This document shows, in pieces, positions 911 through 46,899 of a stretch of DNA of 64,000 nt. The translations under genes were made by a program, and so were the position numbers. The number at the start of each line of letters is the position of its first letter. Position 1 is the stretch's first letter. This DNA comes from Batkoa obscura. Its lineage: Eukaryota. The DNA is taken from positions 1,488,001 to 1,552,000 of the forward strand of contig JASVEC010000001.1 of assembly GCA_030770535.1 (NCBI GenBank), read 5' to 3'. The notes beneath the pieces were generated by a model. The model worked only from the letters and a program-made list of their open reading frames with translations, ran no database searches and was not told the origin of the DNA.

Positions 911-1621
911 ATGAACTCAAAATTACTCTTAGCTTTATTCATTCAATTAACCCTTAGTCGTTCCATTGCTTTGAATCGACGTCACGAGAATGAGGATCAT
1001 GGTAGTATGAGTATCATGCCAGTTAAAGAAGACATTAGTCCAAGTGGAAATAGTAATGAAAATGCTGCTGTTCCACATGAAACTAAATTTAGTAGTAATC
1101 CAATTGTTAATTTACATGAAGATAAATATGAGATGTATACGAATCCTAATGGTATTTATAAGTGTAAAGCGGAATATCCAGAAGATGGAAAAAATCCAAA
1201 CAATCAACAACAGAATCAAAGTCAACAACAAAGTCAACAGAATAGTGGAGAAACTCAAAACAATCAACAACAAAACCAAGATCATCAGCAAAGTCAACAA
1301 AATCAACAACAAAGTCAACAAAACAAAAGCCAAACCCAGAATAACCAACAACAAAACCAAAATATTCAACAGACTCAACAGGTCCAACAACAAAATAGTG
1401 GACAAACTCAAAATAATCAAAATAATCAAAATACTCCACATCCAGAGCATTACGATGGACATCAAATGAATAATGAATCACGAAATAAAGATAGTTACAC
1501 ATCAACTAAAACTCCTACACCTTTACCTGAAAAGAAAACTAGTTTATTAAATGGAATACCCGTAATCGGTAATATAGCATCCTCTTTGGGAATCGATTCA
1601 TTGTTAGATGGGATCTATTAA
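911..1621 (+). CDS. Secreted Kex2-site precursor, PIVG-tail family member 1 (His/Met N-terminus, Q/N-rich, amphipathic C-tail)
   Basis: Single-exon ORF, 236 aa. Signal peptide MNSKLLLALFIQLTLS, LNRR|HENEDH, YTNPNGIYKCKAEY, Q/N-rich tract, ends LLNGIPVIGNIASSLGIDSLLDGIY. TATAAATA ~160 nt upstream. Clear paralogue of 2133. Confidence 0.9.
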   Translation: MNSKLLLALFIQLTLSRSIALNRRHENEDHGSMSIMPVKEDISPSGNSNENAAVPHETKFSSNPIVNLHEDKYEMYTNPNGIYKCKAEYPEDGKNPNNQQQNQSQQQSQQNSGETQNNQQQNQDHQQSQQNQQQSQQNKSQTQNNQQQNQNIQQTQQVQQQNSGQTQNNQNNQNTPHPEHYDGHQMNNESRNKDSYTSTKTPTPLPEKKTSLLNGIPVIGNIASSLGIDSLLDGIY

Positions 1622-2132
1622 GTATGAGAGGAAGTGGGATATTTATAGTTTGAAACTAAGGAAATAAATATAATGTTAGTTATTATTATAAATTAAAAAA
1701 TAATATTTTCTTTGAAGTTTTTATGAAGTTGAATGTTTTTATGAATTTCTTTTTAAATTTTTGTTTTATTTTCATTAATATTATTTCCATTTCAGATTAA
1801 ATTAAGAATTTGACATTATCTAAAAATAAATCCAAGTTATTAATTTTTTAATTGTGTTATATTAATTAAATATCCTAGATTAATAGTCCACTACCTTTAG
1901 AATTCTAATTAAGTTTTAAAGGCTAAATAGGAGGTTTTAATAATACAATTCGTAAAAAATTTTTAAAATTCAAGGACCTTAAGGCTTTGTGTTTTTTATT
2001 CTCTAAAGTTAAATAATATAAATACTCCTACTTGATCCACATTAAATCTCTAAAAATAATAACAAACTTTCAATTTGAAATTGAAGTTAACAACTAATCT
2101 GATAATAATACATCAATTAATATTTTAATATA

Positions 2133-2774
2133 ATGAACACCAAATTGATTTTAGCATTATTCATTAATTTAACTTTAAGTCGTTCAATTGATTTGATTCG
2201 ACGTCATGGAGATGAAGATCATGGTAGTATGAGTAATATGCCAATGAAACAAGATATGGCTACAAATAACAACGGTAATAACGGTGTTATTCTAAACAAC
2301 CCAAATACGGCTACTCCACATACCACAATGTTGAATACTGATGCTAATATCCAAGTTCAAGAAGAGAATTACCAAGTTTATACTAATCCAAATGGGATTT
2401 ATAAATGTAAAGCTACTTATCCAGAAAGTGGAAGTAATCAACCGATTGAACAAAGCCAAAATAATCAGCAGACTCAACAACAGAATCAGAATAACCAACA
2501 GAACCAACAACAAAACCAGAATAATCAACAACAAAGTCAACAAAATAATGGACAAACTCAAAATAATCAACAGACCCAACAGCAAACCCAACAAGCTGGA
2601 CACTCGGATAATCATCAAATAGATACTCAACAGCAGCCCAAAGGTAATTATAGCCCTAATAAGAGTGGTAAAGCCATACCTGAAAAGAAAGGAGGGATGC
2701 TAGGGGGCTTACCTATTGTTGGTGATTTAGTTTCATCTTTAGGATTAGATTCTTTATTAGGTGGTATACTTTAA
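2133..2774 (+). CDS. Secreted Kex2-site precursor, PIVG-tail family member 2 (tandem paralogue of 911)
   Basis: 213 aa. Signal peptide, LIRR|HGDEDHGSM, YTNPNGIYKCKATY, Q/N tract, ends MLGGLPIVGDLVSSLGLDSLLGGIL. TATAAATA near 2018. Confidence 0.9.
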   Translation: MNTKLILALFINLTLSRSIDLIRRHGDEDHGSMSNMPMKQDMATNNNGNNGVILNNPNTATPHTTMLNTDANIQVQEENYQVYTNPNGIYKCKATYPESGSNQPIEQSQNNQQTQQQNQNNQQNQQQNQNNQQQSQQNNGQTQNNQQTQQQTQQAGHSDNHQIDTQQQPKGNYSPNKSGKAIPEKKGGMLGGLPIVGDLVSSLGLDSLLGGIL

Positions 2775-3307
2775 TTTGTTAAGTGAGTATTTATGTTATG
2801 AAAATCAATAAAAAAACAAACCTAATTATTATTGTTAAAGTTACTTTTTTTCCTTATTGCATATTAATATTTTTATAATTTATTACTTTTGTTTTTATAT
2901 TATTACTGAATTATACTTTAAAAATAAGATTATCTACCTCTTATCATCAAAAAAACATCTTGATATTTAACTTTTCCCTAATAATATTAATTTTATATAA
3001 ATTTAAAATATTTATAGTTAAAGCTTTTTTTGTTTTTTTAATGTTAATTTTAACAATTTATAGTAAACTTCATTTACTTATTTTTTTTATTTTTTTATTT
3101 AAAAAATATAAGGTTTTAAAATCATTCTTAGCCTAAATAAAATCTATTTGAGCTTTTTTTATTAAATTTAGAATAAAACAAGGCAGTTTTTTATTTTTAC
3201 TCCTTTTTACCTTTATAGTTAACTTTCTAATTATTTAAACTAATTATTATCATTATTTTTCAAACTTTTATTTAAAATTTTTGCTTTTACAAATAATATT
3301 TATATAT

Positions 3308-3406
3308 GGAGATGTTTTTTTTGATTTCATTATTTTTTCCATTTTTTAAGCGCTATTTGAGTGGAAAGACTGTTAGTAAAATTCTTAAACAGAAAAATAC
3401 ATCCCC
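3308..3406 (+). mobile_element. ~98-bp MITE (GGGGATG...CATCCCC family), copy 1
   Basis: Terminal inverted repeats, ATAT on both sides, core TTAAGCGCTATTTGAG(T/C)GGAAAG shared with many other copies in the window. Confidence 0.85.
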
Positions 3407-3564
3407 ATATGATTTAGAAATTCTACAAATGCTACTTTTAATAATTTTATATAAAAAATTTACTGCTTTATTAATGATATAAAAATTAATATTAATAAAT
3501 CATAAGTATTGAATTTAAATCCTAACTTGTTCATCTATTAAATTATTTTTATTTAACTTACCTG

Positions 3565-4046
3565 TATGAAAGTTGATACTCAGTGGTCGAAGTTAAAAGC
3601 TACTCTTGCTTAATTAACTTGCCTTGAGTCGAACGGTCTTGGTTTATGTAACTAAGATAGACTTAACTTAATAGAAATAGTACGTAATAAGCTACGAATT
3701 ATGTAAAACAAATATAATGGAAGATACTACCGTAAAATCTATGTAAGATGTTGTCAGAAAGACTTAGTGACTTTATTAATGATACGTTATCAGGGAGCAA
3801 TTCAATTAAAAAAGCGTCGAGTTATCATGTTGAAGAATCTCTTTTATACTCCAACTGGGTGGCTATATATAAGGAACGTTATAACAGTTATTCCTTATTA
3901 TAGTTGGCAAGTATGGACATTAAAACGTGGACAATAAGTTCTTCACGATCAGGTAGTAGCAATTCTCACAGCAAATCTATATAAGGAACTCTGAATTGAT
4001 TATCATATTATAATCAATCCTAGAGCTAATGAACCGATATTTTACA
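3565..4046 (-). mobile_element. Solo LTR (retrotransposon remnant), copy A
   Basis: Homologous to 11435, 62058 and 63244. Termini TATGAAA...TTTTACA (degenerate TG...CA). Exact 4-bp TSD CCTG at 3561-3564 and 4047-4050. Confidence 0.85.
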
Positions 4047-9242: not shown

Positions 9243-10808
9243 ATGAATTATATAATCATAATCCTATTCTGTTTCCTTAATACTCTTGATAGTAAAGTCC
9301 ATTATTATTCATGGGAAGTTAAAGATCAAGATATTGCTGTGGATAATTTTAATTTTGAAGGTATAACTATTAACGGAGTTTATCCAGGTCCTACTATTGA
9401 AATTGAACAACATGATCAAGTTAACATATTAATTAATAATCGAAGTCATCGAAATATAACTGTTCATTGGCATGGAATTGAACAGAGAAATAGCAATAAT
9501 ATGGATGGTGTACCTGAATTAACCCAAGCAAGGATATTAACAAATAGCTCATTTAAATATCAATTTAACGTATATAAACAAAGTGGAACTTATTGGTATC
9601 ATGCTCATACTGATCTAGATATTCAAGTAATTTACGGGGCATTGATTATCAAAGAAAAGTTTTTAAAAGAATTAATTGAATACAATGAAAACTATTATTA
9701 TGATGAGGAATTTACTTTAATTTTAAGTGAACGTTGGCATAAAAATACCAGCTTAATTTATCATGATTTATTAAATCCACCCTTTCAGTTTCCATTTCCA
9801 TCCCAATCTATCTTAACTAATGGTAGAACTTTTGATATTTGGGAAAATAATACTAACACTAAAGAAAAGGATTTGTTTAATGAGGGTTATTATGTACAAA
9901 ATGTAGATTTTAATAAAATTTATCGGATTCGAATTATTGCAGCTAATGGACTATCTAATTTAATTTTTGAAATTCAAAATCATATAGAATTCAAAGTAAT
10001 TGAAGTAGATGGCACTTTAATTGAACCTATATTAACTAATCGAATTGAATTACATCCAGCACAAAGATATTCTATATTAATTAAAATGAATCAACCTATT
10101 AGTAACTATTATATGATGACTAGAATTACAGGTAGTAGTAATAATCCTCTATTACCTAATAATGGAGTAGCAATATTACATTATAATGGAGCAGAACCAA
10201 CAAATGAATTGAAGAAAAAGTTGTATGTGCCTGAGAGATTAAATTTGACTGAAAATTTATGGATTTTACCTAAATTAAAAAATTCACGATTTTATCAAAG
10301 TAATTGTATCGATGTTCAAGATACTCATATTTATCAAGTACCTAAACAAATTGACCAAGAAATTGTTATTAATATCACTAATGGAATAGCTAATAATGTA
10401 CCTAAATTTCTAATTAATAATCAATTGGAAGATAAAACTTATTTTATAAGAAATAACACTAATATACAAATTATATTACAACATTTTCAACCCATAGGAA
10501 GTAATTGCGTTACCCATCCTTGGCATTTACATGGTCATTCTTTTTATGTAGTTTCCAATGGTACTTTACCTTATAATCCTTCTATTGACTCAATCAAAAT
10601 TCAAGATACTATTTTATCTCATAAAAAGAATCTTGTGTTACAAGATACATTTACTCATTTTGCTAATCCAAGAACTGTGGGAGATATTATTTTCTGTGGT
10701 TGGTATGCCATCCGACTTAAAGCTGATAATCCAGGAAAATGGTTATCTCATTGTCATATTAATCCTCATTTAGTAATGGGTAAGAGTTTTGTACTAAATT
10801 ATAATTGA
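9243..10808 (+). CDS. Secreted multicopper oxidase (laccase/ascorbate oxidase-like)
   Basis: Signal peptide and four Cu motifs: HWHG, WYHAH, HPWHLHG, HCHINPHLVMGK. Confidence 0.95.
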   Translation: MNYIIIILFCFLNTLDSKVHYYSWEVKDQDIAVDNFNFEGITINGVYPGPTIEIEQHDQVNILINNRSHRNITVHWHGIEQRNSNNMDGVPELTQARILTNSSFKYQFNVYKQSGTYWYHAHTDLDIQVIYGALIIKEKFLKELIEYNENYYYDEEFTLILSERWHKNTSLIYHDLLNPPFQFPFPSQSILTNGRTFDIWENNTNTKEKDLFNEGYYVQNVDFNKIYRIRIIAANGLSNLIFEIQNHIEFKVIEVDGTLIEPILTNRIELHPAQRYSILIKMNQPISNYYMMTRITGSSNNPLLPNNGVAILHYNGAEPTNELKKKLYVPERLNLTENLWILPKLKNSRFYQSNCIDVQDTHIYQVPKQIDQEIVINITNGIANNVPKFLINNQLEDKTYFIRNNTNIQIILQHFQPIGSNCVTHPWHLHGHSFYVVSNGTLPYNPSIDSIKIQDTILSHKKNLVLQDTFTHFANPRTVGDIIFCGWYAIRLKADNPGKWLSHCHINPHLVMGKSFVLNYN

Positions 10809-31356: not shown

Positions 31357-32094
31357 ACTGGTAGAGTATGTGTTTTAAGGTGATAGATGAGCTTTAAATT
31401 ACAAATCTTATTAATATGTTTATATTATGTTTAAATAATATTATTTTTATTGAAGGGAAGATCATATGATAATGATTCGGCTGGACCGCTATTAAAACAT
31501 CCATGGATAAGTAAGAAAGTGAAGGGTTGAGGCCTTAGATTATTTCCGCTTTCCATTAATTATTGAGAATTCTTATCAACTAATTAACCACTTAGGAATT
31601 TTTCTCTTTCAAGAATTTAAATGGTACTTGTTTTTTAAACAAGTCATCAATGTAACTATAAATAAAAACAAAAACTGAGGATAATTAATAATTTTATTAT
31701 TTTGAAATTCATTCTATTTATAATATTAACAATACGAACTTTCAGTCCGATATTGATTTTTAAAAGATTTCTAGATTAATTTATTAGCATGATTTTGACA
31801 CTTGTAATTGCTAGAATATCTCTCCTCAATTTTAATAAATTTGATCCAAAAATAGTTTTATTATAAAATATAAATTTGTAATATTTTATATCAAATTACC
31901 AAAGGTATTGAAATTGGACTATTAATTGTCAACCCGCTATAAAATAATCCAGTAATAAATGAAGGAAAGGATAATGATATTAATAATAATGATTAAAAAT
32001 ATACATAATAAATAACTCAAACTAATTCAAAAGGGTATATAACAACCCATGATGACTCTATAATATTAATAAAAAATTATAAAAAATAAAACTA

Positions 32095-33411
32095 ATGAAT
32101 TTAACTGGTTTAAAATTACTATCATTATATTTACTTATAACTGAAGCCAGTTCTTCACCATTGAGTTTATATCGTCGCCATGGAAATGAAAATCATTCTA
32201 CTATGTCCAATATGAATAATAATAGTCCAATGGAATCAAATAATGATGCTGGACATCCAATGATGTCTAATATGGCTACTAATCAACCATGTGATCATTC
32301 TAAGTTACAGCGTCGTCATGGGGAGGAAGACCATTTATCAATGCCTGGTATGGAAATTATGGCTAATATGGAAGACATGCCAAATATGAATAACAATACT
32401 CCAATGGAATCTCAGTCTAACCAAGGCCGCTCTAATATGCCCAACATGGGTACCAAACAACCATGCGATCACTCTAAATTACAACGTCGTCATGGTGATG
32501 AAAATCATGCCAATATGCCAAATGAAGCGTTTATGCAAAATATGGATACTATGGAAGATATGTCAGATATGCCAGATATGCCAGGAATGGAAAATATGGC
32601 TACTGATAGTGCCCCAATGGAAAGTACCATGATGTCAGGTGATGCTTCAATGGAAAATATGTCCAATATGCCAAACATGGATCAAAATACTCAAATGGAT
32701 AGTAACATGATGTCCGGTGATGCCTCAACGAAAAACATGGCTGATAGCAATGGCCCAATGTCTAATATGGCTGCTTTCAGTGCTCCAATCGAATCTCAAG
32801 CTACTGAAGACCATTCAGCTATGCCAAATATGGGTATTAAAACTCCATGTAAACATTCTAAATTGCAACGTCGTCATGGAGATGAAGACCACTCTGTTAT
32901 GCCAATGCCCAATAAGGCTGCTCCACAAGATCATTCTAATATGCCAATGCCAAATAATGCCCCGATGCCAGCTGTTACTATGTCAGATAAAGTTGAAAAT
33001 TATCCAATTTATACTAATTCTAATGGGATTTATAAATGTAAAGCAGATTATGGGACTGATAATATGAATAATAATCAAAATAATAACAATAACAATAACC
33101 AAAACAATAACAATAACCAAAACAATAACAACAACCAAAACAAATATCCTACCAATCCTAATTATGATGGCGGTAATCAAAATAACAATAAATATCCAAC
33201 AAACCCAACTTATAACAATATTGATGAATCTAAACAATCCCAAGATCAAAAAGCAGATACTCAAATTGGCCATGGTACTGTTGAGGAAGGAAAAAAGGGA
33301 ATTGATATGTCTAAAATGAAAATGCCAGCTGTTAAAATTCCAATAGTTGGAGATCCGTTATCCATGGCTGATCCCAGGTATTTATTAAAATGGATTGTAC
33401 CTAAGATTTAA
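32095..33411 (+). CDS. Secreted Kex2-processed repeat polyprotein (4x RR|HGxExH, Met-rich), PIVG-tail family member 3
   Basis: Signal peptide, LYRR|HGNENH, then three PCxHSKLQRR|HGxExH junctions, YTNSNGIYKCKADY, poly-N, VKIPIVGDPL. Confidence 0.92.
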   Translation: MNLTGLKLLSLYLLITEASSSPLSLYRRHGNENHSTMSNMNNNSPMESNNDAGHPMMSNMATNQPCDHSKLQRRHGEEDHLSMPGMEIMANMEDMPNMNNNTPMESQSNQGRSNMPNMGTKQPCDHSKLQRRHGDENHANMPNEAFMQNMDTMEDMSDMPDMPGMENMATDSAPMESTMMSGDASMENMSNMPNMDQNTQMDSNMMSGDASTKNMADSNGPMSNMAAFSAPIESQATEDHSAMPNMGIKTPCKHSKLQRRHGDEDHSVMPMPNKAAPQDHSNMPMPNNAPMPAVTMSDKVENYPIYTNSNGIYKCKADYGTDNMNNNQNNNNNNNQNNNNNQNNNNNQNKYPTNPNYDGGNQNNNKYPTNPTYNNIDESKQSQDQKADTQIGHGTVEEGKKGIDMSKMKMPAVKIPIVGDPLSMADPRYLLKWIVPKI

Positions 33412-34019
33412 AAAAAGGATTGATTATATTAAATTAATAAATAAAGACTAATTTTTAAAATTTTTAAATATTTAAGTTTGTTTTTTTATGATATTTGAAG
33501 AAATCGAAGTTTAATAATACAAGGAGTTAATTATATAATCATAATTTTGTTAGATTGGTATTATTAATTAAAGTTGTAATTAGAATATACTATTTTCTGA
33601 TATTAAGTATCTGAACCCTTTGTTATTACATTGAATTGATAATTTTGAAAATGCTTAACTTTATATCCTGTGTTGTTAGGATTACCGATCAGATTTTTCT
33701 TAGTCTTTACTATAAAACCAATCTATCCTTGGGTATAGATAATAAGTAAGAAATGGTGAAAACTCTTACCCAAAAAGCTTCAATACAACCAATTACATAT
33801 CAAACCCTACTAAAATAGTATGATAACATTAAGCATTAAACTCAGAAAGCTAACTCTTTCATTGAGTCTTGATCTAACTTGAATTCAAGTCTTCCTTCTT
33901 TTATTTTATATCTTATTTCTTTTATCAACTTTGATTGTCTTAAGAAGATCAAATCTCCAATATGAACAAGTGATGCCAAAAAATACTTAAATGTGATATA
34001 ATAACAATAAGTACATACA

Positions 34020-34111
34020 GATATCGTCTTTGGTTTATTACTGTTTCATTTAATAAGTGCTATTAAGTGGAAAAAAGATTAATAAATCCCTTAAATAAAA
34101 GATCATTCTTG
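34020..34111 (+). mobile_element. MITE copy 12 (highly decayed)
   Basis: TTTGGTTTATTACTG...TAAGTGCTATTAAGTGGAAAAA...CCTTAAATAAAAAGATCATTC aligns loosely with the family; boundaries approximate. Confidence 0.45.
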
Positions 34112-34722
34112 TATATCAAATAAAAACTAAGTATAAAAATACTAGCACTAAAAAAATATATTAATCAATTGGATTGGGATTAATTTAAAACATTTATTTA
34201 GCCAAGGTGTTTATAACTATTTTAAGTAGCTTTGTTTAATATAACATATCAATATATTTACAACAATTGAATAACAAAATTAATACTTTTGTTCTTTATT
34301 TAAATACAATTAATTTTTAAAAGTATTGTTTTAATTTTATTAAAATCGTTAAAGGTTATTGCTTAACAATTTAAATATCAATTTAGAAAAATAGTTTTAC
34401 AAAAATATTATAATATTTCAATAAGATGACAATTTCATTTAGTTTGACTTTGAGTACTAATATAATTTGTATTTGAGATTAAGTCATCTAAAAATGCTAA
34501 ATCTTTACAGAACTTGTGAATGTATCATTTTAGTATTTTGATCTGTTCAAATTTACTAATTTTAAACTTTATTATTGGCTTAACATTTATTTAGCTAATC
34601 ACATTAAAAAAGTATATCTTTAAATGAGTTGACATCATAAATACCTCATATTTAACTGAATCTTTAGTCCTTAATAAATTAACTAATTGAAAATTCAGAA
34701 ATTATCTCATAGTTATTTTGCT

Positions 34723-35060
34723 GCACATTTCAGACATCAAAGTAAAAAAAGTCAATTTTCCTCTCTATTTGTTTCTTTATTCATCAGTTAGTTTTACTTT
34801 ATTCATTAGTAGTAAACTCAGTCCTGGGCTACTTGGTCGTGATGAAGGTTCCGCTGAGCTATCGGATTAGTTTAGCCTAGTGCTCTGCTGTTATCGACAG
34901 GCTAGAGCAGTTTGTAGTTAAAACTGGGCACTTTGTGCATACTATTAATCCTTGATGGTGATTGGGACCTGGTGGGTTTATCCTTGTTTAGGGCCAACAA
35001 CTAGAACTCAAAGCCTTCATCTATTGAGTAGAAGCGGATGTCTGCTTGTGCTTTTTTTTT
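34723..35060 (+). ncRNA. Candidate structured ncRNA of unknown class (~330 nt, ends in T9)
   Basis: Its 3' ~240 nt form a GC-enriched island with no ORF. Nested long-range stems: 34723-34738/35037-35051, 34816-22/35023-29, 34841-50/35012-21. Local hairpins. G-U wobbles favour the + strand. T9 follows immediately. Confidence 0.5.
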
Positions 35061-35455
35061 ATATAAACAAATAATAATCCTAAAATCCTGAAGTATGATA
35101 ATTAATTATACTTAAAAACTGTTGTTACTATTATATAAGATAGTAAATTAACTTTTTATTTAAACTATTAAATTACTTGATACACATTAGTATTATTAAA
35201 TGTTTACACTGTGTACTAATCAAGTAGTATATAACTCAATCATAATAGTTGTTTTAAAAGGCTTTTAACTTATTTCAGTAGATTAAATTATAAATATATT
35301 ATTATAAAACTTTATTATAGTTTTAACTATGTTAATTACTAAAAGTAGGTAGTGTTGTATAAGGTTCCTTAAAAATGGTAACATACTATTTTAATCAAAA
35401 ATTAAGACAAGTCAATTAAACATATAAAATTATTTATTAAACTATAAAACTACCC

Positions 35456-36862
35456 TTATTTTAAAAGTTGGTTAATTCCTTCTTTCTCGGTATTAATATA
35501 AACTTTGTGCGATTGTTCAAAACCATTAAATTCCATATTAAAACAAGTAGAATATGATCCCATGTTTTCAAAATATAACCAATCTTCCAATTTGAGTTCT
35601 GGTAATTTCAATCCTTTTTCAATATTAATTTTATCTTTAGCACCTAAAGCAGGACCCCATAAAGAGCATTCAACATCATCTTCTGTAGATTCAATCTTTG
35701 GATAGATTTCATCACCTCTTTTTAAGATTCTAGGCTTATATAAAATTTGAGGTATAAATGCACCCTCAGCAAAGGATTTAAATACACCATCGTTTAAATA
35801 ATACATGATACTTTTAGATTTACAATCATCGTTGGATTCACAAACACGTTTACCAATGACAGTGGTAGCTAAAGTGAAATAAGAAGCAGCAAAGAATCTA
35901 CCAGGTTCAGCAATAAAAGATACATCTTCCTTTTGATAATAAAAATCTAACGCTTCAGTTACTGCTTTGGTAATTTCAATAAATTCCTTCTTATTTTGAT
36001 GTCCTGGGAAACCGCCACCGATATCTAATACTTTGATATTAATATTTAATTTCTTGGCTTGATCAAATACTAATTTTGATCTTCTGATAGTTTCTACATA
36101 AGATTGTGGGTTTAAACAATCGCTACCTACATGAAAACTAATACCAGTAACATTTAAATTTAATTCTTTGGCTGCTTTTAATAAATCAACGCAGGATCCA
36201 TTCACCTCAGCACCAAATTTTTCACCAAAGGGTACTTTAGAATTACAATCCATTGGTAGTATACGTAAATATAATTCAGCATCGGGATAATATTTATGGG
36301 TCTTATGTAATTCTTCCAAGTTATCAAAGGTCATCTTTTTTACTGAATTTTGCCTAGCAAATCTGAGATGAGATACTTGTTTACATGGGTTAGCATAGAT
36401 GATATCTTCTGGTTTAACCCCATGTTGTAACATAGTATGTATTTCTTTTTTACTAGCACAATCAAATCCAATTCCAATAGCTGCCATTAACTTCAACATA
36501 CTACTATCTGGATTCGATTTCACTGCATAAAAAGGCTTGACCATAGGTAAATTTTCTGCCCATAATTTATACATACGGTATGTTTCGCCTAAATCCCCGA
36601 CTAAGAAGGAGTCTTCCATACCATTTTCGAGTTCTTTCTTAATCATGGTTAAAGCATCGCATGTTGGTAGATTGTTGAAGTAAGATTTAAGACTTGGTTT
36701 TTCACTTAATAAAGCGGAAAAGGTACGTTTAACAGATTCTTTTAAACCAGGATCGGAAAATAAACTTGGATCTAATAATTTTAAATTGCTTGTCTTTTTC
36801 TGCTTTGAAGAAGGAAAGAAAGTAGCTTGAGTTGGGCTAATTACTTGTAATGAATAATCCAT
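35456..36862 (-). CDS. Ornithine decarboxylase homologue lacking catalytic Cys/Asp (antizyme-inhibitor-like or altered-substrate enzyme)
   Basis: PFYAVKSN (PLP Lys), FDCASKKEI, SFHVGS, DIGGGF and AEPGRF are present, but WGPTCD is replaced by WGPALG. First ATG at 36862. Confidence 0.9.
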   Translation of the reverse strand: MDYSLQVISPTQATFFPSSKQKKTSNLKLLDPSLFSDPGLKESVKRTFSALLSEKPSLKSYFNNLPTCDALTMIKKELENGMEDSFLVGDLGETYRMYKLWAENLPMVKPFYAVKSNPDSSMLKLMAAIGIGFDCASKKEIHTMLQHGVKPEDIIYANPCKQVSHLRFARQNSVKKMTFDNLEELHKTHKYYPDAELYLRILPMDCNSKVPFGEKFGAEVNGSCVDLLKAAKELNLNVTGISFHVGSDCLNPQSYVETIRRSKLVFDQAKKLNINIKVLDIGGGFPGHQNKKEFIEITKAVTEALDFYYQKEDVSFIAEPGRFFAASYFTLATTVIGKRVCESNDDCKSKSIMYYLNDGVFKSFAEGAFIPQILYKPRILKRGDEIYPKIESTEDDVECSLWGPALGAKDKINIEKGLKLPELKLEDWLYFENMGSYSTCFNMEFNGFEQSHKVYINTEKEGINQLLK

Positions 36863-37781
36863 ATTGATTGGTTGTATAAAGATCTTTGTCAAAAAGATGA
36901 TTGTTTATTAAGTAGTATCTAATCAATAGATAGATATTATTTTTATATTGAATTCAATGCTATTTGAAGATGTTTTTATACTATAATTTTAGTTCTTTAT
37001 TAATCAACTAAAAATAGTTGACTTGCGGTTTAATAGTCAACTTTGAGATTCAGAGGTTTAATCTAAAGACAAATTTATACATAATAAATTGTAGTAACGA
37101 ATTGAATTGTATTACTATTGATATTAATTAATCTCATCAATTGCTTCTAGAATTGAAAGCCACTATCATTTATATTAATTATTGCTTATTAAAGTCGAAC
37201 TTTTATTAATAACTTTATTAACGTTATAATGTGAATGCATTAAGTTTTAGTCGAAAACATTGTGCTGAAGTTATCAAATTGAGTAAATCGTATTAACTTT
37301 AGAAAGGTTTAATCATATCCCCGATTATTTAATGGTTGGAATCCTCTTTAAAAACAATTAGATATTTTTAGCTTATCACAGCATTAATAAAAATGTTATA
37401 AAAATATATTATTTTTCTTGTTGTCATATAGTTATTTATGTAAATTTATTTTTTATTCTAGACTGTATTAATTCATTTGTTTCCTTAAATAACTATTTAA
37501 TTACTCGATGGTCAAACCCTCTCTTTAAATTTTTATTATATTGTGTTTTCTAATTATAGCTCTGTTGTATGAAATACACTACAACAATCTCCATTCTTTG
37601 TACCCCGAATTCGGGCCAACTATTCGCCTATTTGATTACCCATTGTCTTCAATCCTTTTTATAAATTACTTTATTATTATTCCTATAATTTATAACTATT
37701 GATTCATCACATGAAGTACAATTCCATACCCTTCCTTTATAATCTAGATTTAATTAATTATTGATTTACTTGGCTGAATAT

Positions 37782-37880
37782 GGGGATGTATTTTTATGTT
37801 TAAGAATTTTACTAACAATTTTTCCGCTCAAATAGTACTTAAAAGATCGAAAAAGTGATGAAACCAAAAAAAACACCCCC
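37782..37880 (-). mobile_element. MITE copy 13
   Basis: Reverse orientation, ATAT flanks. Sits between two copies of a short local duplication (TCACATGAA.TACAATT.CATACCC). Confidence 0.85.
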
Positions 37881-39321
37881 ATATCGTTTTTGATCCTCTT
37901 TTCGATTATATTATTATTATCATTGTTGTTTTAGTTTTATAACAATCAATCCCTCACATGAAATACAATTTCATACCCATTTTTTTGATACACTAGATTT
38001 GAAAATATAGTTCATTATCTGGATTATCTGCTGACATTAATCTAGTATCCAAACTTTCACCTTCTTTAATATCACATCATTTAAAATGCGATCCCAATTT
38101 TTTTTCTAAGATATTAATAAAACCCAAATAAACGTCTAACGAATTCAAAGCCTTTCATATTGATGACAATAAAACAATTAACTAAATAAAATAAATAAAA
38201 GGCGGCTAATACTAAATTAGTACAAATTGTTTTTATTCATTAGTCTTTCATTAAATACTATATTCCCCTCTGCTTCAATTCTATACTCGCCTCTCCTCCA
38301 ATCCTATATAATATAAAATACACTATTTAGTAGAGACTACATTAACTTATTTTTGTTTTTATTCTTTCGATGATCTTATCGAATCCCCTATCTGAAGACG
38401 CTAAAGTCTCGAAATAAACAGCATGAAAGCACTAATAGTTTAATCAAGGAACCGATTTAAGTGCTATTTTAGAAATTCCTTAGCTTCAATGTATGTAAGA
38501 TGCCTCTAAATAAAATGGCAGTTGATACACATGTTCGACATTGTACCCTAAAGAATAGATTAAAAGCATTGTAAAAGCAAAAGGATTTCATGAACACTAG
38601 TGTAGATCACAGAAGAGATATGAGAACAGCTTATTACATACAATACAATCAGTATTTACCAAACTGCATTACCACCTCTACTTTACTTTACAGTTTTATA
38701 CGCAAAAATAATTCATACATAAATTATAGATTTCAACGTTTTTTGATTTTAATATTTAAGCTTAAATGAAGGTAACGCCAGCAGTTTAGTTGAAAAATGA
38801 CAAATTTGCATAGAATCTCAAGTCATTTTTTATTTATTTCCCAAAAAAGTGGACAAAAACATGAAACAAAAGGTACCCCGAAATAAACTTCTTAACTGAT
38901 TAGATTGGTTAAGCTTTTCTATATACTACTATAGTTAAATTTTATAGATATGTGCCTAAGATAATGTTTATCAGTCGAATTTTTCAATCATACTTTTATG
39001 AATATGAGTTGTTTTGGTAAAATGCTAAAAATTTTATTAGTTATTGTAGCTTATAGTGAAATAGTTTCACAAAGAATAATAATAGTATTAGCTTTATTAA
39101 GTAAATTAAATTGAAATTGAGAATTGCAATTTAACTATAATAGCCTATAAACGATTCTAGTTTGATCCGATCTATTTTAAATAATAAATATTTAAAGCCA
39201 TTAATAATATTGAGAATAAAATAAAATTGTCCCCTGTCTAATTTAGAATTGAAATGAAATCATAAAAAAGGTTCTTATTATTATATAAATAAAAATTTAT
39301 TAAAGTATAGTAATAAACCCG

Positions 39322-39660
39322 TTACATTAACCCACCGACGATAGGGATATCTTCAAGACCTAAAGAAGACATAAGTCCACCCTTAGAACCCCCATCTGAG
39401 CCTGAACCTCCATATTCTTTACCATTCTTTTCATCAGCTTTTTGATTGTATTCATTGAGTACTTGAGCTGGATTTTTACCACCCATCATGGCCATCAGTT
39501 GTGGAATTAAGGCCGTAATACCTGGATTGTTACTACCACCTGGTAAATGTCCATGTTCTTGATGAGTTTCAACAAACGATTTACGACGTTCTAACTGGAT
39601 GGCGGCTCCATTTGTTAAAGAAATGATAGTAGTGATAAAGATAAAGGAGGAAAATTTCAT
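39322..39660 (-). CDS. Small secreted precursor, PIVG-tail family member 4
   Basis: 112 aa from ATG 39660. Signal peptide, LERR|K, His cluster THQEHGH, ends GGLMSSLGLEDIPIVGGLM. Confidence 0.85.
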   Translation of the reverse strand: MKFSSFIFITTIISLTNGAAIQLERRKSFVETHQEHGHLPGGSNNPGITALIPQLMAMMGGKNPAQVLNEYNQKADEKNGKEYGGSGSDGGSKGGLMSSLGLEDIPIVGGLM

Positions 39661-40767
39661 TATTGATATAGATATTAATACAGATGTAAATGTAGTTTTT
39701 TTTACCAGAAAAAAAATTGATTGTTTAAAGATATTGGATCCTTTCAACGGTTTTTATACCTTTTTTTAAGTACTGGGGTTACTTAAGAAATCTTTGTTAT
39801 TTGTAATAAGCAATACATCAGATTTCAATATGACTGTATAGAAAGTGCTATTTTTAGTTTTTAGCCTTTATTTAATAAATGTTTTTTGATTATTGTTTAT
39901 AATTAATTGTTTTGAGACTTAAGCATAGTACTGATTATTTTAAAACCCCTATAATAATTGTTTTAAAACCTTATAATAATCATTGGTATTATTATTTAGT
40001 ATTTTAATAGATTAAAAACTAAATAAGCCATAGTTTTACACTATAGCTGTTGTATATTAGATTTACTGAGTTTATTTAAACTATAGTTATTAATTGCTAG
40101 TAAAGCTTTTCTGTGTAAATTATTCACTACGAATTTTAAAAAATTAAAAAATTAAAAGATATAATAGATAAACTCAAATTTATAATACTAATACTACCAT
40201 ATTAAGTTTCCATAAGAATAAACTTGATTTTTTTCGAAAATCTTGGATCCCTATGAGAAACTAAAATTTAGAAAAAAAAATATTGTTTAATTTTTTTGAC
40301 CCGCTATTTTCTTACAGTTGATAATTTATCCACTTGAAATTTTATTATTTATGCATCCATGTTGAGTAATAAATTAATTTAAAAATAAATGTGGCACAGT
40401 TGTTTTAATATCTTTTTCAAACTATATAACCTTTCATTCAACGGCAATTTATATACTGGAACTCTATAAGATATGAGGGTCAAGCTTTAAAGAAATCAGT
40501 TGGGCAAATTATTTAACTGTAAAAATTATCACTAGATAGTTCACAAGTGAGATGAAACAGTTATATTGAGCATTAAAAAAACAATCAATTTTTTAAACTA
40601 TAATAGATTATACTAGCTGTAATATAGTTGAATCCAATATATATAAAAGATAAAAAGATAAAATTCTATTTATAATTATACTTTAATTTTTAAATCCTGG
40701 TGATTTATACTTCCATATTTCATTCTACTATTCTATTTTACTACTTAATTACAAACATAATTTTACT

Positions 40768-42285
40768 ATGATCCAACTAATTGGTTATTTCCTTGTATTG
40801 AGTACAGTAATACTAATTACTAAGGTAAATAAAAATATATGAATAAATGAATAAAACTAATAAAAGTTCAAACAGATAATATACACTCTTTATTTCTCCC
40901 CATTAAGGCACATCCCAGGTCCATTTTTAGGTAAACTAAGTGGACTGTATATCAAATATTATATAACAATTGGTAAATATCATGAACACTTAAAGCATTT
41001 ACATGATATTTATGGCCCCGTTGTTCATTTCGCACCAAACCGTATCATTTTTAATGAAAAAAATGCAGCTGACACCATCTACTCTTCGTATAAATTTAAA
41101 AAATCCGTTTTTTATCAAGCATTTGATTATGGTGCAGCTAATATTTTTAGTACTGATGAACGTACTGTACATACTGAACGTAAAAAGATTATTGGTAAAA
41201 TCATCAGTAATAAAAATATTCAACAATTGGAACCAGTCATGAAACACACTGGGTTTTTGCCTTTTAAAAATTTCATAAAGCAAAAGGTTGATAATAAGGA
41301 GAATTCTGTTGATTTTTATGAATTAATTCATAAGGTTTTATTTAATATCAATGGCCAACTTTTACTGAGTGAAGATTTAGGTTTATTAAATGAAAGTAAT
41401 GAATTACCAATATTAAAATGGTTAAAAGAAGCTCAAGTTTATGGCATAATGCAATATGAATATCCAATAATAAGATATTTCAATCATAATAAACAAAGTA
41501 CTGGATACAATAGTTATACTCAATTCATTAACTTTTGTAAAGATAAAGTAAAGTTGAGAATGAAACAACTGACCTTAAATAAGAAGCCAAGTGACTATAA
41601 TGATATTTTACAAGCTTTTTTGAACTCAGAGGTCATTAGCACTGATCCAAATCTCATCAATACTTTAACTGCTGAAATAATTACTGGTTTTATTGCTGGT
41701 ACGGATACCACCGCAAATACTTTAACTTGGGCATTAAAATGCATTTTAGAAGAAGATCAAGTTTATGAGAAAATACAAAAAGAAATTGAGTCCAATTTTA
41801 GTCACATGAATGATGAAGATATCAGTTATTCACAAATCAAACAAGCATGCCCTTATTTAGAAGCTGTGTTGTATGAAGCTATGCGCCTCTACCCTGTTGG
41901 AGCAGGCTTTTTACCAAGAGTGGTACCTAAAGAAGGAGCAGTCTTAGGCTCCTATTTTATACCGAAAGATATGGAGGTAGGAATTGGTAGCTATGCTTAT
42001 AATCGAAATGAAAAATTATGGCATGATGCTGATAAGTTTATACCTGAACGATTTCTAGGTCAAGATGCTAAAGATAAAAAATTGAATTATTTACCCTTTT
42101 TAAATGGCCCACGTTCTTGTATCGGTAGAGAATTCGCTTGGATGGCTATGTACCTTACTTTGGTTTACATGTTTAAAAATTTTAATTTTAAGTTGAAGCC
42201 AGAGTATGAAGAATTAGAACCTTATTTCTTTTTAGTTTTAAAACCAAAGCAGGGTAAATTTGATATTGAAATTGAAAATAAATAG
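40768..42285 (+). CDS. Cytochrome P450 (ER-anchored)
   Basis: 2 exons (intron 40825-40875). TM anchor, SPLRHIPGP hinge, AGTDTT, EAMR, PERF, PFLNGPRSCIG. Confidence 0.95.
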
Positions 42286-43353
42286 TTACTACATGGTTAA
42301 ACTTTATCATTTATTTCATTGATATTGTTAGAAAATATTTTAATGTTTATTATTAAATTTGTTTAGTAAACCTATCCCCTAAAGCATACAATCTTACTGG
42401 AAACTTGATTTAATAAAAAAGTTTATATCATTAATGATAATTTTCATGTATGAGGTTTTAAGCTATTGGGATATGTAATGAAAACCTTAATTTTTTGGAA
42501 AGACAACTATAATTGTAATAAAACATATGTAAAGTTATTACAATAATTTAGTCTTAATTATATATCACATCTATAGTGTTTAAAAGGTTTGTCCTAAAAA
42601 GTGAAGGGCTAAACTTTGAGTCCTCATATACTTTAGTAAAAGCAAAGTAACGATAATGATAAAGGCTGATATAACTGAGATAAATGAAGGTTATAAAGAA
42701 TTTTAAAAAACATTAACTTTTTATATTAATCATTATCATTTGTCTACTAATTTTTAAGCGTTTATTACTAGTAGATTTCATAGCTATGTTCATTGTTATT
42801 ATTTTTAGCTGATTTTTTTTCTTAAATAAACATTAGCATTTTTTTTTTTGGAATTTTAGTTATATAACAAATAAATGCTTTAATTATGATAAGTATATTT
42901 TTATAGAAAAATACACTATCAACTTTAAAGTCGCTTGCAATGTTTTTGTTTATGTATTAAGTGATTACATGTAAATATAGTACCTTTAGCTAGAAGTAGA
43001 CATTTTGGAAATTTTATTTTTCATTAATGTTTTTTGGACTTTATTTTATTTAATTTATAAAAGAAATGCTCCATAATCAGGCATGAGTTAGTTTACTAGC
43101 TTATCAGTTTTGTTTATTTTTTTGCTGTTTTTATGACAATTACATAGCTCCTCAAAAACTCTATTTTTTATACACATTTCAATATTATAAAATGTTAGTA
43201 AGTAACTAATAAAATACAGAAGGTTACAAAATCGTAAAGAAAGTAGATTTAAAGGCTATTTATTGTGGAAATATTAAACTCCAAATTAAAATTCCAACTT
43301 ATGAAGGTTATAAATACTAAACACTATAAATAAAGTTATTTAAGCCTACTTAA

Positions 43354-43671
43354 TTATAGTATTAATCCTTGAGTTCCAAACCAAGAGCCAATATTTAACA
43401 GTGATAGCACATCACCAACAATGGGGATATTAAAGCCACCACCATCTCTTTTGACTAGAACCCTTTTTTTAATATTCTCCTTTTCTAACCCTTTTTCATT
43501 ATTTATGAATAAAGCGACAGCAGCATCATTATGAAAAGTGATTCTATCAATAGCTTCTTTGGGTACGTTATTGAAACCGTCTTGTTTTAAATTACCTAAT
43601 TCCGCTGGAAAACAATTAATTATACTCAAAGGAATAGCCGTTAAAAGTAGCTGATTTACACCAAACCTCAT
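43354..43671 (-). CDS. Small secreted precursor releasing a 30-aa hydrophobic peptide, PIVG-tail family member 5
   Basis: Signal peptide, pro-region, LVKR|DGGGFNIPIVGDVLSLLNIGSWFGTQGLIL*. TATAAATA upstream. Confidence 0.85.
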   Translation of the reverse strand: MRFGVNQLLLTAIPLSIINCFPAELGNLKQDGFNNVPKEAIDRITFHNDAAVALFINNEKGLEKENIKKRVLVKRDGGGFNIPIVGDVLSLLNIGSWFGTQGLIL

Positions 43672-45050
43672 TTTTGAAGTTTAAATTATTATTTGTTTTG
43701 TTTATTGATATTGATTTTCATGTTGGATTATTTATACTGTTTACCAAAGTATCACGCTAATAAACCATTGCAAATACTAGTCTAATAATTATTATATCCT
43801 TTGTTAAACTATATTGCTATTTTTATTTTTCAAGTTTATTGATAAACCCAAGACTTTCATTATCATTTTGAGGTTTCAATTAATTATATCCTTAAATTAA
43901 TATCTAAGTATATTAATAAATTCTACTCGATATTACTTTTATCCAATAATTGTTTATTTAATGATATGATTTCACTCAGAATTTGTTTTGTTTATATGCA
44001 TTTATAATTATCCACGGATTTAAATTCAATGTTAATAATAATGAAATCCCTTAATACAAGTATGTAAAACAACCATATTTTATTAAAAGTTTAGATACTC
44101 AAATCTCGAACTTATTTCTACCTTCGGTTTATTAAAAGGGTAGATATCAAAATTAATGACTACAACATTCAAATTGTTACCTTAATTAATGCCTAAATGA
44201 ATATGTACAATTAATTATTTTTAGCTCACTCATATCTAGTACTTATTATTTCTTTAACCCCCAACTATAAATTATGTTAGGCTCTCCTCTCCTCTCCCGG
44301 ATAAACCTATTTTCATCACTATTTATCCTCTACATGGACTATAATACCTTCCAATACTACAACAATAAGCCAAAATTTCTAAATAAAGCTTAATAGAATT
44401 CGGTTTTAATTTAAGTTTTAATTTAAGTTTTAATTTTCAATCTACCTTTCAAAAATATGCTAATTAATCAAAGTCCGAATCTAGGCTTAGTACTGCTAAA
44501 TAAAGTAAAAATAGAAACCAAAATTCAGTGGCTTCATTTATGTTGGTTATTAATATGTCTTCGATATTTATAGCTTTAAGTTTGTCATTGAATTTTAAAT
44601 TCAACTGTTACAATTCAGAGCTTTAGAGTTAAGCAATATTAACACCTCTTCATTCATTACCTGTATGTTTTACATTGATATAATCCAAGGTTTTAAATAT
44701 ATAATCGATACTATTTTCTGCTCAGTTTAATAATAACCTGGTATCATACGCCGTGATATAGAATGAATAAAATTGTGGTAATTAGCCAGGATACTTCAAT
44801 GACTGTATCTTAGAACACTGAATTAAGTACAACTAGTTTTATTATATTATAAATAATAATACTTGAATTCAGTCACTGTTCATCGTAATATATTTGTCAA
44901 AAATAAAACTTCTTATAAAAATAATAGCTGATTGTATTTTAATATGTTTTACTAAAGCATCCCAGTGCATCTCAACTTGAGAATGATATTAATAAAATTT
45001 GTGTCAAAAAATGTGTTTATAATAAACGGATAAATGGCTCTTAAAGCTAT

Positions 45051-45149
45051 GAGAATATATTTTTTTGTTTAAAAATTTTACTAACAATCTTTCCACTCAA
45101 ATAGCGCTTAAAAAATGGAAAAAATAATGAAACCAAAAAAAACACCCCC
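45051..45149 (-). mobile_element. MITE copy 14
   Basis: Reverse-orientation family core. Confidence 0.85.
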
Positions 45150-45555
45150 ATATAATAGAATTAATAACCTAGCCGTTAATAATAATAAAACAAATATAAT
45201 TTTTAAAAAGTATGAAAAAAACAAAAATATAATAACTATAATAAAAATATAAGATATTAAAAAATATTTACATTTTATTAAATATAATAATAAACTATAT
45301 TATTATCTAGTATCTGATAAATAAATAAAAAATGATATAGTTTTAATTAAAGTTATTATATTTATAGGAAATAAAAAAATCAACCCCAACTTATTTTGTA
45401 AAAATAACTAATTTAAAAGTTTCAATAGTTACTAAGCAAATAAATAGTTTATTAAATGATAGAATATTTTCATGGAAAAGTACATGGATCAAATTACTTT
45501 TATAGTCTAATTAGACATTATTCATTGTTTTATCATACATATAGTCTGATTATGT

Positions 45556-45654
45556 GGGGGTGTCTTTTTTGGCTTCATTATTTTTTCTATCTTTTAAGCG
45601 CTATTTGAGTGGAAAGATTGTTAGTAAAATTCTTAAACACAAAAATACATCCTC
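45556..45654 (+). mobile_element. MITE copy 15
   Basis: Family core, flanked by a 16-17-nt direct duplication. Confidence 0.85.
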
Positions 45655-46625
45655 ATATAGTTGATTATGTAAGTTATTGCCGTTTGTAGCAAAAACCATG
45701 CACTTTAAGTTCATTTCTGTTGTAGTAATTTTTCGAACTGCAATGGGGTATTCAAAAAGGTAATTTTGCAGCCAATTTGTAATAGTAATGTCATCCTTAT
45801 AAAGTTCAGGATGCGATATTACTTAATTTTTTCTTTTAAAAAAATTGAATATTTTTATAAGCTTTATCCTTTAAAAATAAAATCACTCAAATTAGTAGCA
45901 ATATTCTTCAAAATCATAAAACATAGAAAAATAATTATTAAAATTAATAAGTATTTAAAATAAAAAGCCAAAAGTAAAAAATAGGAAAATGATAAAATAA
46001 TGAATTTTTTTTAAAACTGCAAGAAGAATTTTATTGGTTTGAGCTGTAATTTGAATAATATCTGCATAATAAACCAAATAAATCTCATAATGATAGCAAA
46101 AAACAAGGCAATTTATTTCACTTTTTTGGCAACAATTAGCACAATCAACTGTGATGAATTTTAATTTTGCTATTTTAACTATTTACAAATACTGTTCAAA
46201 AATCAAAATCAGTATAGCTATTAAATTTTAATTGTGTAAAAATTAGTAATAATTTGTAAAACTAATAGCTTGTAATATCTTGCTGATTTACAGCTTAACA
46301 CTTAGAATTTTACTTTTAAAATAAACGATTTAGCTTTACACAATTGAACTAACATCTATAGTTAAACTTCTTTAGAATTAAGCCACTTTTAACTAGACTG
46401 GGTACCTTATTAAAGATAAATAAAAATGAGATATTAATATCATTAAATACCACACAAATAAGGCAATCTTTTTATTTTTTATTTTTTGTTCTTAATAAGC
46501 GGTTTTATGGCTATTAAAGTTTAATTAAATAGATATAAACATAACTTAAAGTATAAAAGAAAAAGAATTATGATTTTTTTTAAAATCATAAAAAATCTTA
46601 ATTATTAACTCACTTAATATCCCAT

Positions 46626-46899
46626 ATGAAATTATATCATTTAATTAATTTACTTGTTATCAATGCTTTTACTTTACAACCTAGAGCTAACGTAAGTCAA
46701 CTGTTTTAATATACTATCCCTTCAAATGTACTAATGGCTTTTTCTCTAGTCCAATGCTTTAATCAATCCTAATTTTTTACCTGAATCTACTCAACAAGTC
46801 AAAATTCCCATGTCTAAATCCAATGGTAATGGACAACTATTAGCTAGCTTACCCATTGCTGGTGGACTATTGAAGAGTATGGGATTAACTTTTTTATAA
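46626..46899 (+). CDS. Small secreted precursor, PIVG-tail family member 6 (spliced; absent from ORF track)
   Basis: Exons 46626-46691 and 46750-46899; intron GTAAGT...TACTAAT...CTAG. 71 aa: MKLYHLINLLVINAFTLQPRANSNALINPNFLPESTQQVKIPMSKSNGNGQLLASLPIAGGLLKSMGLTFL. TATAAAAG upstream, AATAAA downstream. Confidence 0.8.

What the first reader, a model, noticed from the sequence alone, without database searches (positions are those of the whole stretch)
911..46899. Six dispersed secreted precursors share a Kex2-type site and a C-terminal amphipathic 'PIVG' tail: candidate undescribed peptide system
Seen: six genes (911, 2133, 32095, 39322, 43354, 46626) all have a signal peptide and an L-x-[RKP]-R site (LNRR, LIRR, LYRR, LERR, LVKR, LQPR). 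All end in a related motif: GIPVIGNIASSLGIDSLL / GLPIVGDLVSSLGLDSLL / KIPIVGDPLSM / SSLGLEDIPIVGGLM / NIPIVGDVLSLL / SLPIAGGLLKSMGL. The middles vary from ~30 to ~380 aa and are largely unrelated outside the 911/2133/32095 trio, so the tail behaves as a modular tag. In 39322 the SSLGL and IPIVG parts are swapped. Known: Kex2 cleaves after KR/RR (and PR). Kex2-released amphipathic peptides include Candida candidalysin (Ece1) and Ustilago Rep1 repellents, and LPIVG.LL resembles frog temporin N-termini. Inference: the tail is a surface-, lipid- or membrane-binding or self-assembling helix (spore coat/adhesive, surfactant or insect-membrane-active) carrying different cargoes. Most tails are neutral or acidic, which favours a surfactant or anchor role over a cationic antimicrobial one.
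Basis: partly seen in the sequence, partly recalled or inferred. Interest (0 to 1): 0.88.

Follow-up and report, generated by a model that had tools for sequence, protein, structure and literature searches.

The report
Fungal secreted precursors sharing hydrophobic tail
Six neighbouring genes of an insect-infecting fungus encode predicted exported proteins that end in the same short greasy tail, which likely lets them stick to fatty or water-repelling surfaces such as the spore coat or insect cuticle; a similar motif recurs in other fungi, plants, microbes and frog skin peptides.

Summary
Six of 12 signal-peptide ORFs in the window, and 0 of 16 others, carry [ILV]P[ILV][ILVA]G in their last 25 residues. 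All six have an LxxR site; the other six secreted ORFs do not. Five have 81-97% identical counterparts on one Neoconidiobolus thromboides contig.

Corrections: two tails were quoted short; the Arg site precedes the tail only in 43354; LQPR is LQSR in the orthologue; amphipathicity is modest.

The motif is not unique to this locus. A whole-library search found it in fungal Kex2-type repeat precursors (Marasmius, unnamed records), a Phycomyces repeat protein, a plant rubber-elongation-factor protein and virus-like proteins. Temporins begin with it.

Best reading: a generic Pro-Gly-capped short helix that binds lipid or hydrophobic surfaces, used on kexin-matured coat or adhesive proteins that work like Ustilago repellents (inferred, 0.42). 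Gene 32095 is a Kex2-repeat-type precursor of His-first, Met-rich peptides, possibly metal-binding. No other Entomophthorales members and no paper on these genes were found.

The parts
911..1621 (+). Secreted precursor, 236 aa: signal, LNRR then His-first HENEDH, YTNPNGIYKCKA box, Q/N-rich linker (33% Q+N), KK, 27-aa K/R-free tail with IPVIG (1556-1570)
   Evidence: counterpart P0001 = KAI9296366.1, 191/209 aligned residues identical
2133..2774 (+). Tandem paralogue, 213 aa (55% identical to 911): LIRR then HGDEDH, same box, Q/N linker, KK, 27-aa tail with LPIVG (2709-2723)
   Evidence: an RNA-guessed contig spans 2063-2817; no database counterpart came up
32095..33411 (+). Kex2-repeat-type precursor, 438 aa: four RR sites each followed by HG[NED]E[ND]H and Met-rich sequence (fragments 46, 58, 128, 178 aa; 11.6% Met), same box, N-rich linker, degenerate cationic tail with IPIVG (33337-33351)
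   Evidence: counterpart P0003 = KAI9296351.1 has five repeats
39322..39660 (-). Secreted precursor, 112 aa: LERR at 23-26, His-containing middle, 19-aa K/R-free tail with SSLGL before IPIVG (39334-39348) and only three residues after it
   Evidence: counterpart P0006 = KAI9296349.1, 109/112 identical; an RNA-guessed contig spans 39318-39657
43354..43671 (-). Prepropeptide, 105 aa: signal, pro-region, LVKR (72-75), then a 30-aa K/R-free terminal peptide (43357-43446) with IPIVG (43414-43428); the only member in which an Arg site frees the tail
   Evidence: counterpart P0002 = KAI9296347.1, tail 27/30 and rest 58/75 identical
46626..46899 (+). Two-exon gene (46626-46691, 46750-46899), 71 aa: signal, LQPR, tail with LPIAG (46849-46863), net +1
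   Evidence: counterpart P0007, 71 aa, 67/71 identical, LQSR at the site
46692..46749 (+). 58-nt intron, GT..AG with a CTAAT branch-like site
   Evidence: sequence; length of P0007; no spliced read seen among the joints shown

Best explanation
Six clustered genes of an entomophthoralean fungus encode predicted secreted, likely kexin-matured proteins ending in a shared Pro-x-x-Gly hydrophobic tail that likely folds into a short helix on lipid or other hydrophobic surfaces, so the products would act as surface-coating or adhesive amphiphiles, working like the Ustilago repellents. Shown: the gene models, the tail, the LxxR sites, counterparts in N. thromboides, and the same motif in unrelated proteins. 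Inferred steps: (1) the signal peptide is removed and kexin cuts at LxxR in the Golgi. (2) In 43354 this frees a 30-mer. In 911 and 2133 a KK at the same 6-residue spacing could free 27-mers, perhaps through another protease; uncut, the tail anchors a disordered Q/N or His/Met-rich head, like a block-copolymer surfactant. (3) After the PIVG cap, about two helical turns with one greasy face adsorb to spore or hyphal surface, air-water interface or cuticle wax. (4) In the trio, cleavage exposes an N-terminal His in HGDEDH-like, Met-rich peptides that may bind copper or zinc.
For: Tail and LxxR enrichment. A dibasic site lies exactly 6 residues before the motif in 911, 2133 and the otherwise unrelated 43354, and 4 of 6 terminal peptides (19-30 aa) lack K/R and are 67-89% G/S/L/I/V/M. 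Of 17 hits in 1.84 billion representatives, 2 are orthologues and 14 of the other 15 carry the 5-mer. In P0009, P0012, P0015 (Marasmius) and P0021 it sits 5-9 residues after an Arg site inside repeated precursor units. P0013 has a REF domain (PF05755, E 3.6e-19; that REF proteins coat lipid monolayers is recalled) followed by 14 motif copies. Many temporins start with the motif (table in PMC10049141). A profile from 26 foreign segments ranks the six genes 1-6 of 2538 (partly circular). Post-motif helical phase is shared, and AlphaFold puts a helix right after the motif (pLDDT 58, low). Hydrophobins were described almost only in Dikarya (PMC6784888 passage), and the adhesive of E. muscae is unidentified (PMC8588673 passage).
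Against: No direct evidence of surface activity, location or processing. Hydrophobic moments do not exceed shuffles, and the phase signal vanishes at 11 residues. 39322 has only 3 residues after the motif and 32095 a Pro after it, so neither can form the same helix. Kex2 wants Arg at P1 (PMC8528282 passage), so KK is doubtful. Tails are not better conserved than the rest (p 0.35). No shared upstream k-mer exceeds random gene sets. No member was found in other Entomophthorales. Rep1 is a 12-repeat precursor, while these carry one tail each. 8 of the 15 foreign proteins scored hold the motif inside long repeats with no regular cut site.
Confidence: 0.42

Rival explanations
1. The tails are released membrane-damaging peptides (temporin- or candidalysin-like) aimed at insect cells or at bacteria competing for the cadaver, and the middles are mostly pro-regions.
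For: 43354 has the signal / pro-region / KR / terminal peptide layout of temporin precursors. The 46626 tail is +1 and close to temporins of the LPIAG type in the same table. Virus-like hits P0011, P0014 and P0018 carry a near-identical 13-mer after a GG-S junction (that this resembles an adenovirus-type protease site is recalled). A secreted trypsin lies at 21138.
Against: Four of six tails are net negative. Temporin D, a neutral LPIVG peptide, showed no antibacterial activity (PMC10049141 passage). There is no amidation signal, and lipid-binding discrimination factors are low (-0.5 to 0.8). The trio's middles hold conserved His boxes that a mere spacer would not need.
Confidence: 0.2
2. The tail is a sorting or retention signal inside the secretory route (membrane-associating helix or receptor-bound C-terminal signal) that sends different cargoes to one vesicle type or to the spore halo.
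For: It is strictly C-terminal and single-copy on different middles, and goes with LxxR.
Against: It is absent from the six other secreted ORFs, including the enzymes. In other fungal-type precursors the motif is the repeated product between cut sites, not a terminal tag. Distance to the stop varies from 8 to 24 residues.
Confidence: 0.14
3. The genes are precursors of signalling peptides (pheromone- or quorum-like) in which the PIVG core is read by a receptor.
For: Signal, variable middle and conserved C-terminal motif is the usual layout of peptide-hormone precursors (recalled). The core is 24/25 identical between orthologues.
Against: Flanks differ widely, the order is swapped in 39322, there is no STE13-type dipeptide run, and the motif is generic across kingdoms.
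Confidence: 0.1
4. For the trio the business end is the His-first, Met-rich N-terminal peptide, a secreted copper or zinc scavenger. The tail only tethers it and is incidental.
For: Four (five in P0003) RR-HG[NED]E[ND]H repeats with 6-24 Met and one Cys per fragment. A multicopper oxidase (9243) and a tyrosinase (24494) lie between the trio genes.
Against: It does not explain 43354 or 46626, which lack His clusters. No metal data exist, and the copper-enzyme neighbours could be chance (not tested). This reading is compatible with the best explanation.
Confidence: 0.09
5. The tails are GPI-anchor signals, or the resemblance is chance among hydrophobic C-termini.
For: Signal peptide, polar linker and hydrophobic end is the GPI-protein layout.
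Against: Terminal uncharged runs are 1-18 residues and KD means of the last 15 are 0.2-1.6, against 28 and 2.7 for ORF 58177 in the same window. Composition-preserving shuffles give a joint chance of about 1e-8 for four independent tails (motif chosen post hoc).
Confidence: 0.05

Closest known systems
Ustilago maydis Rep1 repellents (PMC3133707, PMC4617103; passages read)
   Same: Secreted precursor cut at Kex2 sites into hydrophobic or amphipathic peptides of similar length (34-55 aa there, 19-30 here); proposed role at hyphal or spore surfaces in place of hydrophobins.
   Different: Rep1 has 12 repeats in one gene; here one tail per gene on six genes. Amyloid film formation is shown for Rep1 and untested here. 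No sequence comparison with Rep1 was made.
Kex2-processed repeat proteins, KEPs (PMC6339444, PMC7329392; passages and supplement searches)
   Same: 32095 has a signal and four RR-bounded similar units. C. coronatus has 19 listed KEPs. The tail motif is the repeated unit of fungal-type repeat precursors P0009, P0012 and P0015.
   Different: The other five genes are not repeat proteins, and the PIVG tail is never the repeated part here.
Kex2 pro-domain (K2PP) secreted proteins (PMC8528282; passages read)
   Same: LxxR soon after the signal peptide in five genes.
   Different: That feature is common (about 30% of 120 effectors examined there) and says nothing about the tail.
Frog temporins (PMC10049141; passages and sequence table)
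   Same: The same L-P-I-V-G start with hydrophobic residues at +6, +7 and +10; tripartite precursor layout as in 43354.
   Different: Temporins start directly after KR, are 10-17 aa, amidated and mostly cationic. Here there is a 6-11 residue lead-in, no amidation signal, and mostly acidic tails. Convergence, not descent (inferred).
Candidalysin / Ece1 of Candida albicans (PMC5784256; passages read)
   Same: About 30-aa hydrophobic peptide with an internal Pro, released by Kex2.
   Different: Candidalysin is an internal KR-flanked cationic cytolysin from a multi-peptide precursor and has no PIVG motif; these tails are terminal and mostly acidic.

Membership tests
KEP | ER signal peptide | tested here: inconclusive
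   Hydrophobic N-termini in 6 of 6; SignalP not available
KEP | Three or more similar repeats between KR/RR/KK/RK sites (each at most 100 aa in Umemura's rule) | tested here: inconclusive
   32095: four RR-His units of 46, 58, 128 and 178 aa, two over 100 aa; definitions
KEP | Repeats in 911, 2133, 39322, 43354, 46626 | tested here: not met
   One or two Arg-type sites each and no repeated units
K2PP precursors | KR/RR/LxxR in the N-terminal half after the signal | tested here: met
   5 of 6 at residues 17-28; in 43354 at 72-75 of 105, outside the first half
K2PP precursors | Cleavage shown in vivo or in vitro | not testable with these tools
   needs proteomics
Rep1-type repellents | Many amphipathic repeats in one precursor | tested here: not met
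   One motif per gene
Rep1-type repellents | Surface-active amyloid film on hyphae | not testable with these tools
   no amyloid predictor or assay available
Rep1-type repellents | Sequence homology to Rep1 | not tested
   Rep1 sequence not fetched; no Pfam family above cut-off for the six proteins
Temporins | Mature peptide directly after KR, with a C-terminal Gly-Lys amidation signal | tested here: not met
   Spacer of 6-11 residues in 5 of 6 and no such ending
Candidalysin / Ece1 | Cationic peptide flanked by KR on both sides in a multi-peptide precursor | tested here: not met
Hydrophobins | Eight conserved cysteines | tested here: not met
   0-4 Cys per protein and none in the tails
GPI-anchored proteins | Uncharged, strongly hydrophobic C-terminal run after a small-residue omega site | tested here: not met
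   Rule-of-thumb check only: KD of last 15 is 0.2-1.6 with internal charges, control ORF 2.7

The most novel reading that the evidence does not exclude
The PIVG-capped helix is an unrecognised, cross-phylum fungal surfactant or adhesive peptide module. It is repeated between Kex2 sites in some fungi and appended singly to different hydrophilic or metal-binding heads in Entomophthorales, where it does the work of hydrophobins: spore halo, cuticle adhesion, gluing the dying host.
Probability: 0.17. Interest if true: 0.8.

Novelty: new variant of a known kind. Interest (0 to 1): 0.5.

Why it matters
Entomophthoralean fungi shoot sticky conidia and fix hosts to surfaces. The adhesive is not identified (PMC8588673), and hydrophobins were reported almost only from Dikarya (PMC6784888). 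Six named genes with 19-30 residue synthesizable tails make a concrete, cheap candidate. If the same module is the repeat unit of orphan Kex2 precursors in other fungi, it would give a function to a group of unassigned peptides. If not, this is one more lineage-restricted cluster of secreted orphans using a common helix cap.

Tried and rejected
Genome-wide scan: no genome held.

Exact look-up: 0 of 10 window proteins are in the collection.

Pfam: nothing above cut-off for the six proteins, or for the tails. PDB with the tail profile: 1 hit at E 8.1. ESM Atlas: no usable hit for 43354 or the 2133 tail.

Word-indexed homologue searches: 6 hits among 7988 scored candidates (crowded by long proteins), 1 of 3570 (profile dominated by 43354, missed even P0006) and 1 of 23. 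These are too insensitive to show absence in other Entomophthorales.

Metagenome scans: 0 of 595 for the trio; 4 of 415 weak, unrelated matches for P0009.

AlphaFold: 43354 alone pLDDT 37, unusable; tail model pLDDT 58. No fold search or complex job was run.

Upstream k-mers: 0, 1, 1 shared against random means 0.4, 0.6, 0.3. No tail-to-tail DNA similarity outside 911/2133.

Expression: no listed holder is on record as RNA. No listed contig piece covers 46626; this is no evidence either way.

Literature: motif search returned 221 papers, 40 listed, none on fungal tails. Locus tags, accessions and HGDEDH: 0 papers. KEP supplements held as text showed no PIVG/PVVG/PVIG, but those of PMC7329392 list accessions rather than sequences and figures are not held, so a listing there cannot be excluded. 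The original Rep1 papers were not held.

Dropped before the foreign-profile count: P0010 (exact tandem repeat) and P0017 (no motif).

Rejected: GPI signal, hydrophobin, chance, and membership of temporins or Ece1.
Full report
Setting. The window is 26% GC and holds ordinary fungal genes: multicopper oxidase, trypsin, tyrosinase, ornithine decarboxylase and P450. No genome is held. The closest database proteins are from Neoconidiobolus thromboides FSU 785, 81-97% identical, on one 128,731-base contig with accessions in the same order (KAI9296366, 351, 349, 347). The window therefore comes from a close relative. None of ten window proteins tested is identical to a database entry.

Observation. 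All six genes exist. The 46626 model needs a 58-nt intron, and the 71-aa counterpart P0007 matches it. The 5-mer [ILV]P[ILV][ILVA]G appears 7 times in six frames (1.5 expected), 6 of them in these tails. It is in the last 25 residues of 6 of 12 secreted-like ORFs and 0 of 16 others. LxxR is in those six and in none of the other six secreted ORFs. Leave-one-out profiles recover 2133, 43354 and 46626 as best non-training segments of 2538; 911 and 32095 come weakly and 39322 not at all. A 13-residue extension of the motif is met by 911, 2133, 43354 and 46626 and by nothing else in the window (written after seeing them). So there is a core of four tails (three independent), one truncated and permuted tail (39322), and one degenerate tail (32095).

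Corrections. The Arg site frees the tail only in 43354. LQPR in 46626 is LQSR in the counterpart, still LxxR but not PR. Hydrophobic moments are moderate (0.24-0.49, Fauchere-Pliska, 11-mers) and never beat shuffles. The 8 residues after the motif share a helical phase across tails (p 0.02-0.04); 11 residues do not. Tails are not significantly more conserved than the rest. Between 911 and 2133 the last 30 codons show 13 residue changes, mostly conservative, with 9 synonymous differences.

A dibasic pair lies exactly six residues before the motif in 911 and 2133 (KK) and in 43354 (KR), and four terminal peptides of 19-30 residues contain no K or R. KEP surveys count KK as a site, but Kex2 strongly prefers Arg at P1, so release from 911 and 2133 is open. 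In the trio, cleavage at RR exposes His-Gly/Glu-x-Glu-x-His. 32095 repeats this four times (five in P0003) with Met-rich bodies and one Cys per unit. That is a Kex2-repeat layout, and its composition suggests metal binding (inference from recalled Cu-ligand preferences).

Expression. Runs guessed to be RNA, from two studies, give contigs that lie on the genes and stop in the gaps where the DNA run continues. They span 2063-2817, 1002-1660, 2069-2690, 32094-33051, 32573-33427, 39318-39657 and 43285-43421. This is a weak hint for five of six genes, since RNA status is a guess. Nothing listed covers 46626.

Distribution of the motif. The tail profile against 1.84 billion representatives gave 17 hits at E <= 0.001, 2 of them orthologues. 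Of the other 15, 14 hold the 5-mer, all in two or more copies. They include a Marasmius crinis-equi precursor with six units after PR sites and two unnamed fungal-looking Kex2-type repeat precursors (P0009 with eight copies, P0012 with seven). There is also a Phycomyces protein with 31 copies, an animal-looking multi-peptide precursor (P0021), and a REF-domain protein with 14 copies. The rest include a Thiomicrorhabdus protein, three virus-like proteins with the motif five residues after a GG-S or AG-S junction, and tape-measure-like proteins. Repeated motifs are what such a search can see; single-copy distant tails would score below threshold (P0006 scored 26 bits). Absence in other Entomophthorales is therefore not shown. 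Many temporins begin with the same five residues. The motif is best seen as a widely reinvented Pro-Gly cap for a short helix that sits on lipid or hydrophobic surfaces; this functional gloss is inference from the company it keeps.

Mechanism. Most likely (0.42) these are kexin-matured surface amphiphiles. The free peptide from 43354, perhaps from 911 and 2133, and tail-anchored hydrophilic heads in the rest would coat spores or hyphae or aid adhesion, in the manner of Rep1. This fits a lineage with an unidentified adhesive and from which hydrophobins were not reported in the one survey read. Rivals are lytic peptides (0.2; mostly acidic tails and the inactive neutral temporin D argue against), a sorting signal (0.14), signalling peptides (0.1), metal scavenging as the main role of the trio (0.09, compatible with the best reading), and GPI signal or chance (0.05).

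Novelty. Searches for the motif, locus tags and accessions found no paper on these genes. For the papers cited I saw passages (PMC11105155, PMC6339444, PMC7329392, PMC4617103, PMC8588673, PMC10049141, PMC8502044, PMC2515848, PMC8528282, PMC5784256, PMC3133707, PMC6784888, PMC13514795, PMC12387763) and supplement search hits (PMC7329392, PMC6339444, PMC9769878), never whole texts. KEP sequence files and figures that were not held could list related peptides. The parts are of known kinds: Kex2-matured secreted precursors and hydrophobic surface peptides. The single-copy tail on six different precursors is an undescribed variant as far as these searches reach. Interest 0.5.

Noticed in passing
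window 45048-45657, and solo arm 37778-37884: 610-bp non-coding element with 109-nt terminal inverted repeats (92% complementary), laid by contigs at summed depth about 1000-fold above the flanks: a high-copy MITE-like transposon, possibly TA-flanked.
   Followed up: partly
window 32095-33411: Four RR-bounded His-first, Met-rich repeats with a PC[DK]HSKLQRR end; the database counterpart has five. Candidate secreted metal-binding peptides.
   Followed up: partly
window 911-2774 and 32980-33060: A YTN[PS]NGIYKCKA box is invariant in the trio, with a single Cys that could form inter-chain disulfides; no Pfam match.
   Followed up: partly
window 21138-22217: Secreted trypsin whose catalytic domain is interrupted by an LQRR site followed by a Q/P-rich repeat insert of about 85 residues; not checked whether part of it is an intron.
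   Followed up: no
window 47054-48922 and 54641-55657: Two secreted proteins built of short Cys-paired CPxG repeats, with no Pfam family above cut-off.
   Followed up: no
window 9243-10808 and 24494-26221: Two secreted copper enzymes (multicopper oxidase, tyrosinase) lie between the His/Met-rich trio genes.
   Followed up: no
window 58177-58560 (-): 127-aa ORF with a signal peptide and a 28-residue uncharged C-terminus: GPI- or membrane-anchored candidate.
   Followed up: no
run X1 on window 500-3300 and 31500-47200: The DNA run shows two contig versions of many stretches differing by several per cent from each other, suggesting a diploid, hybrid or mixed sample.
   Followed up: no
proteins P0009, P0012, P0015, P0021: Unassigned repeat precursors whose unit is a PIVG-type peptide between Arg sites; possibly an unnamed class of Kex2-released hydrophobic peptides.
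   Followed up: partly
proteins P0011, P0014, P0018: Virus-like basic proteins with 2-3 copies of a GG-SFL-led PIVG-type helix, resembling protease-released membrane-active segments (resemblance recalled, not tested).
   Followed up: no
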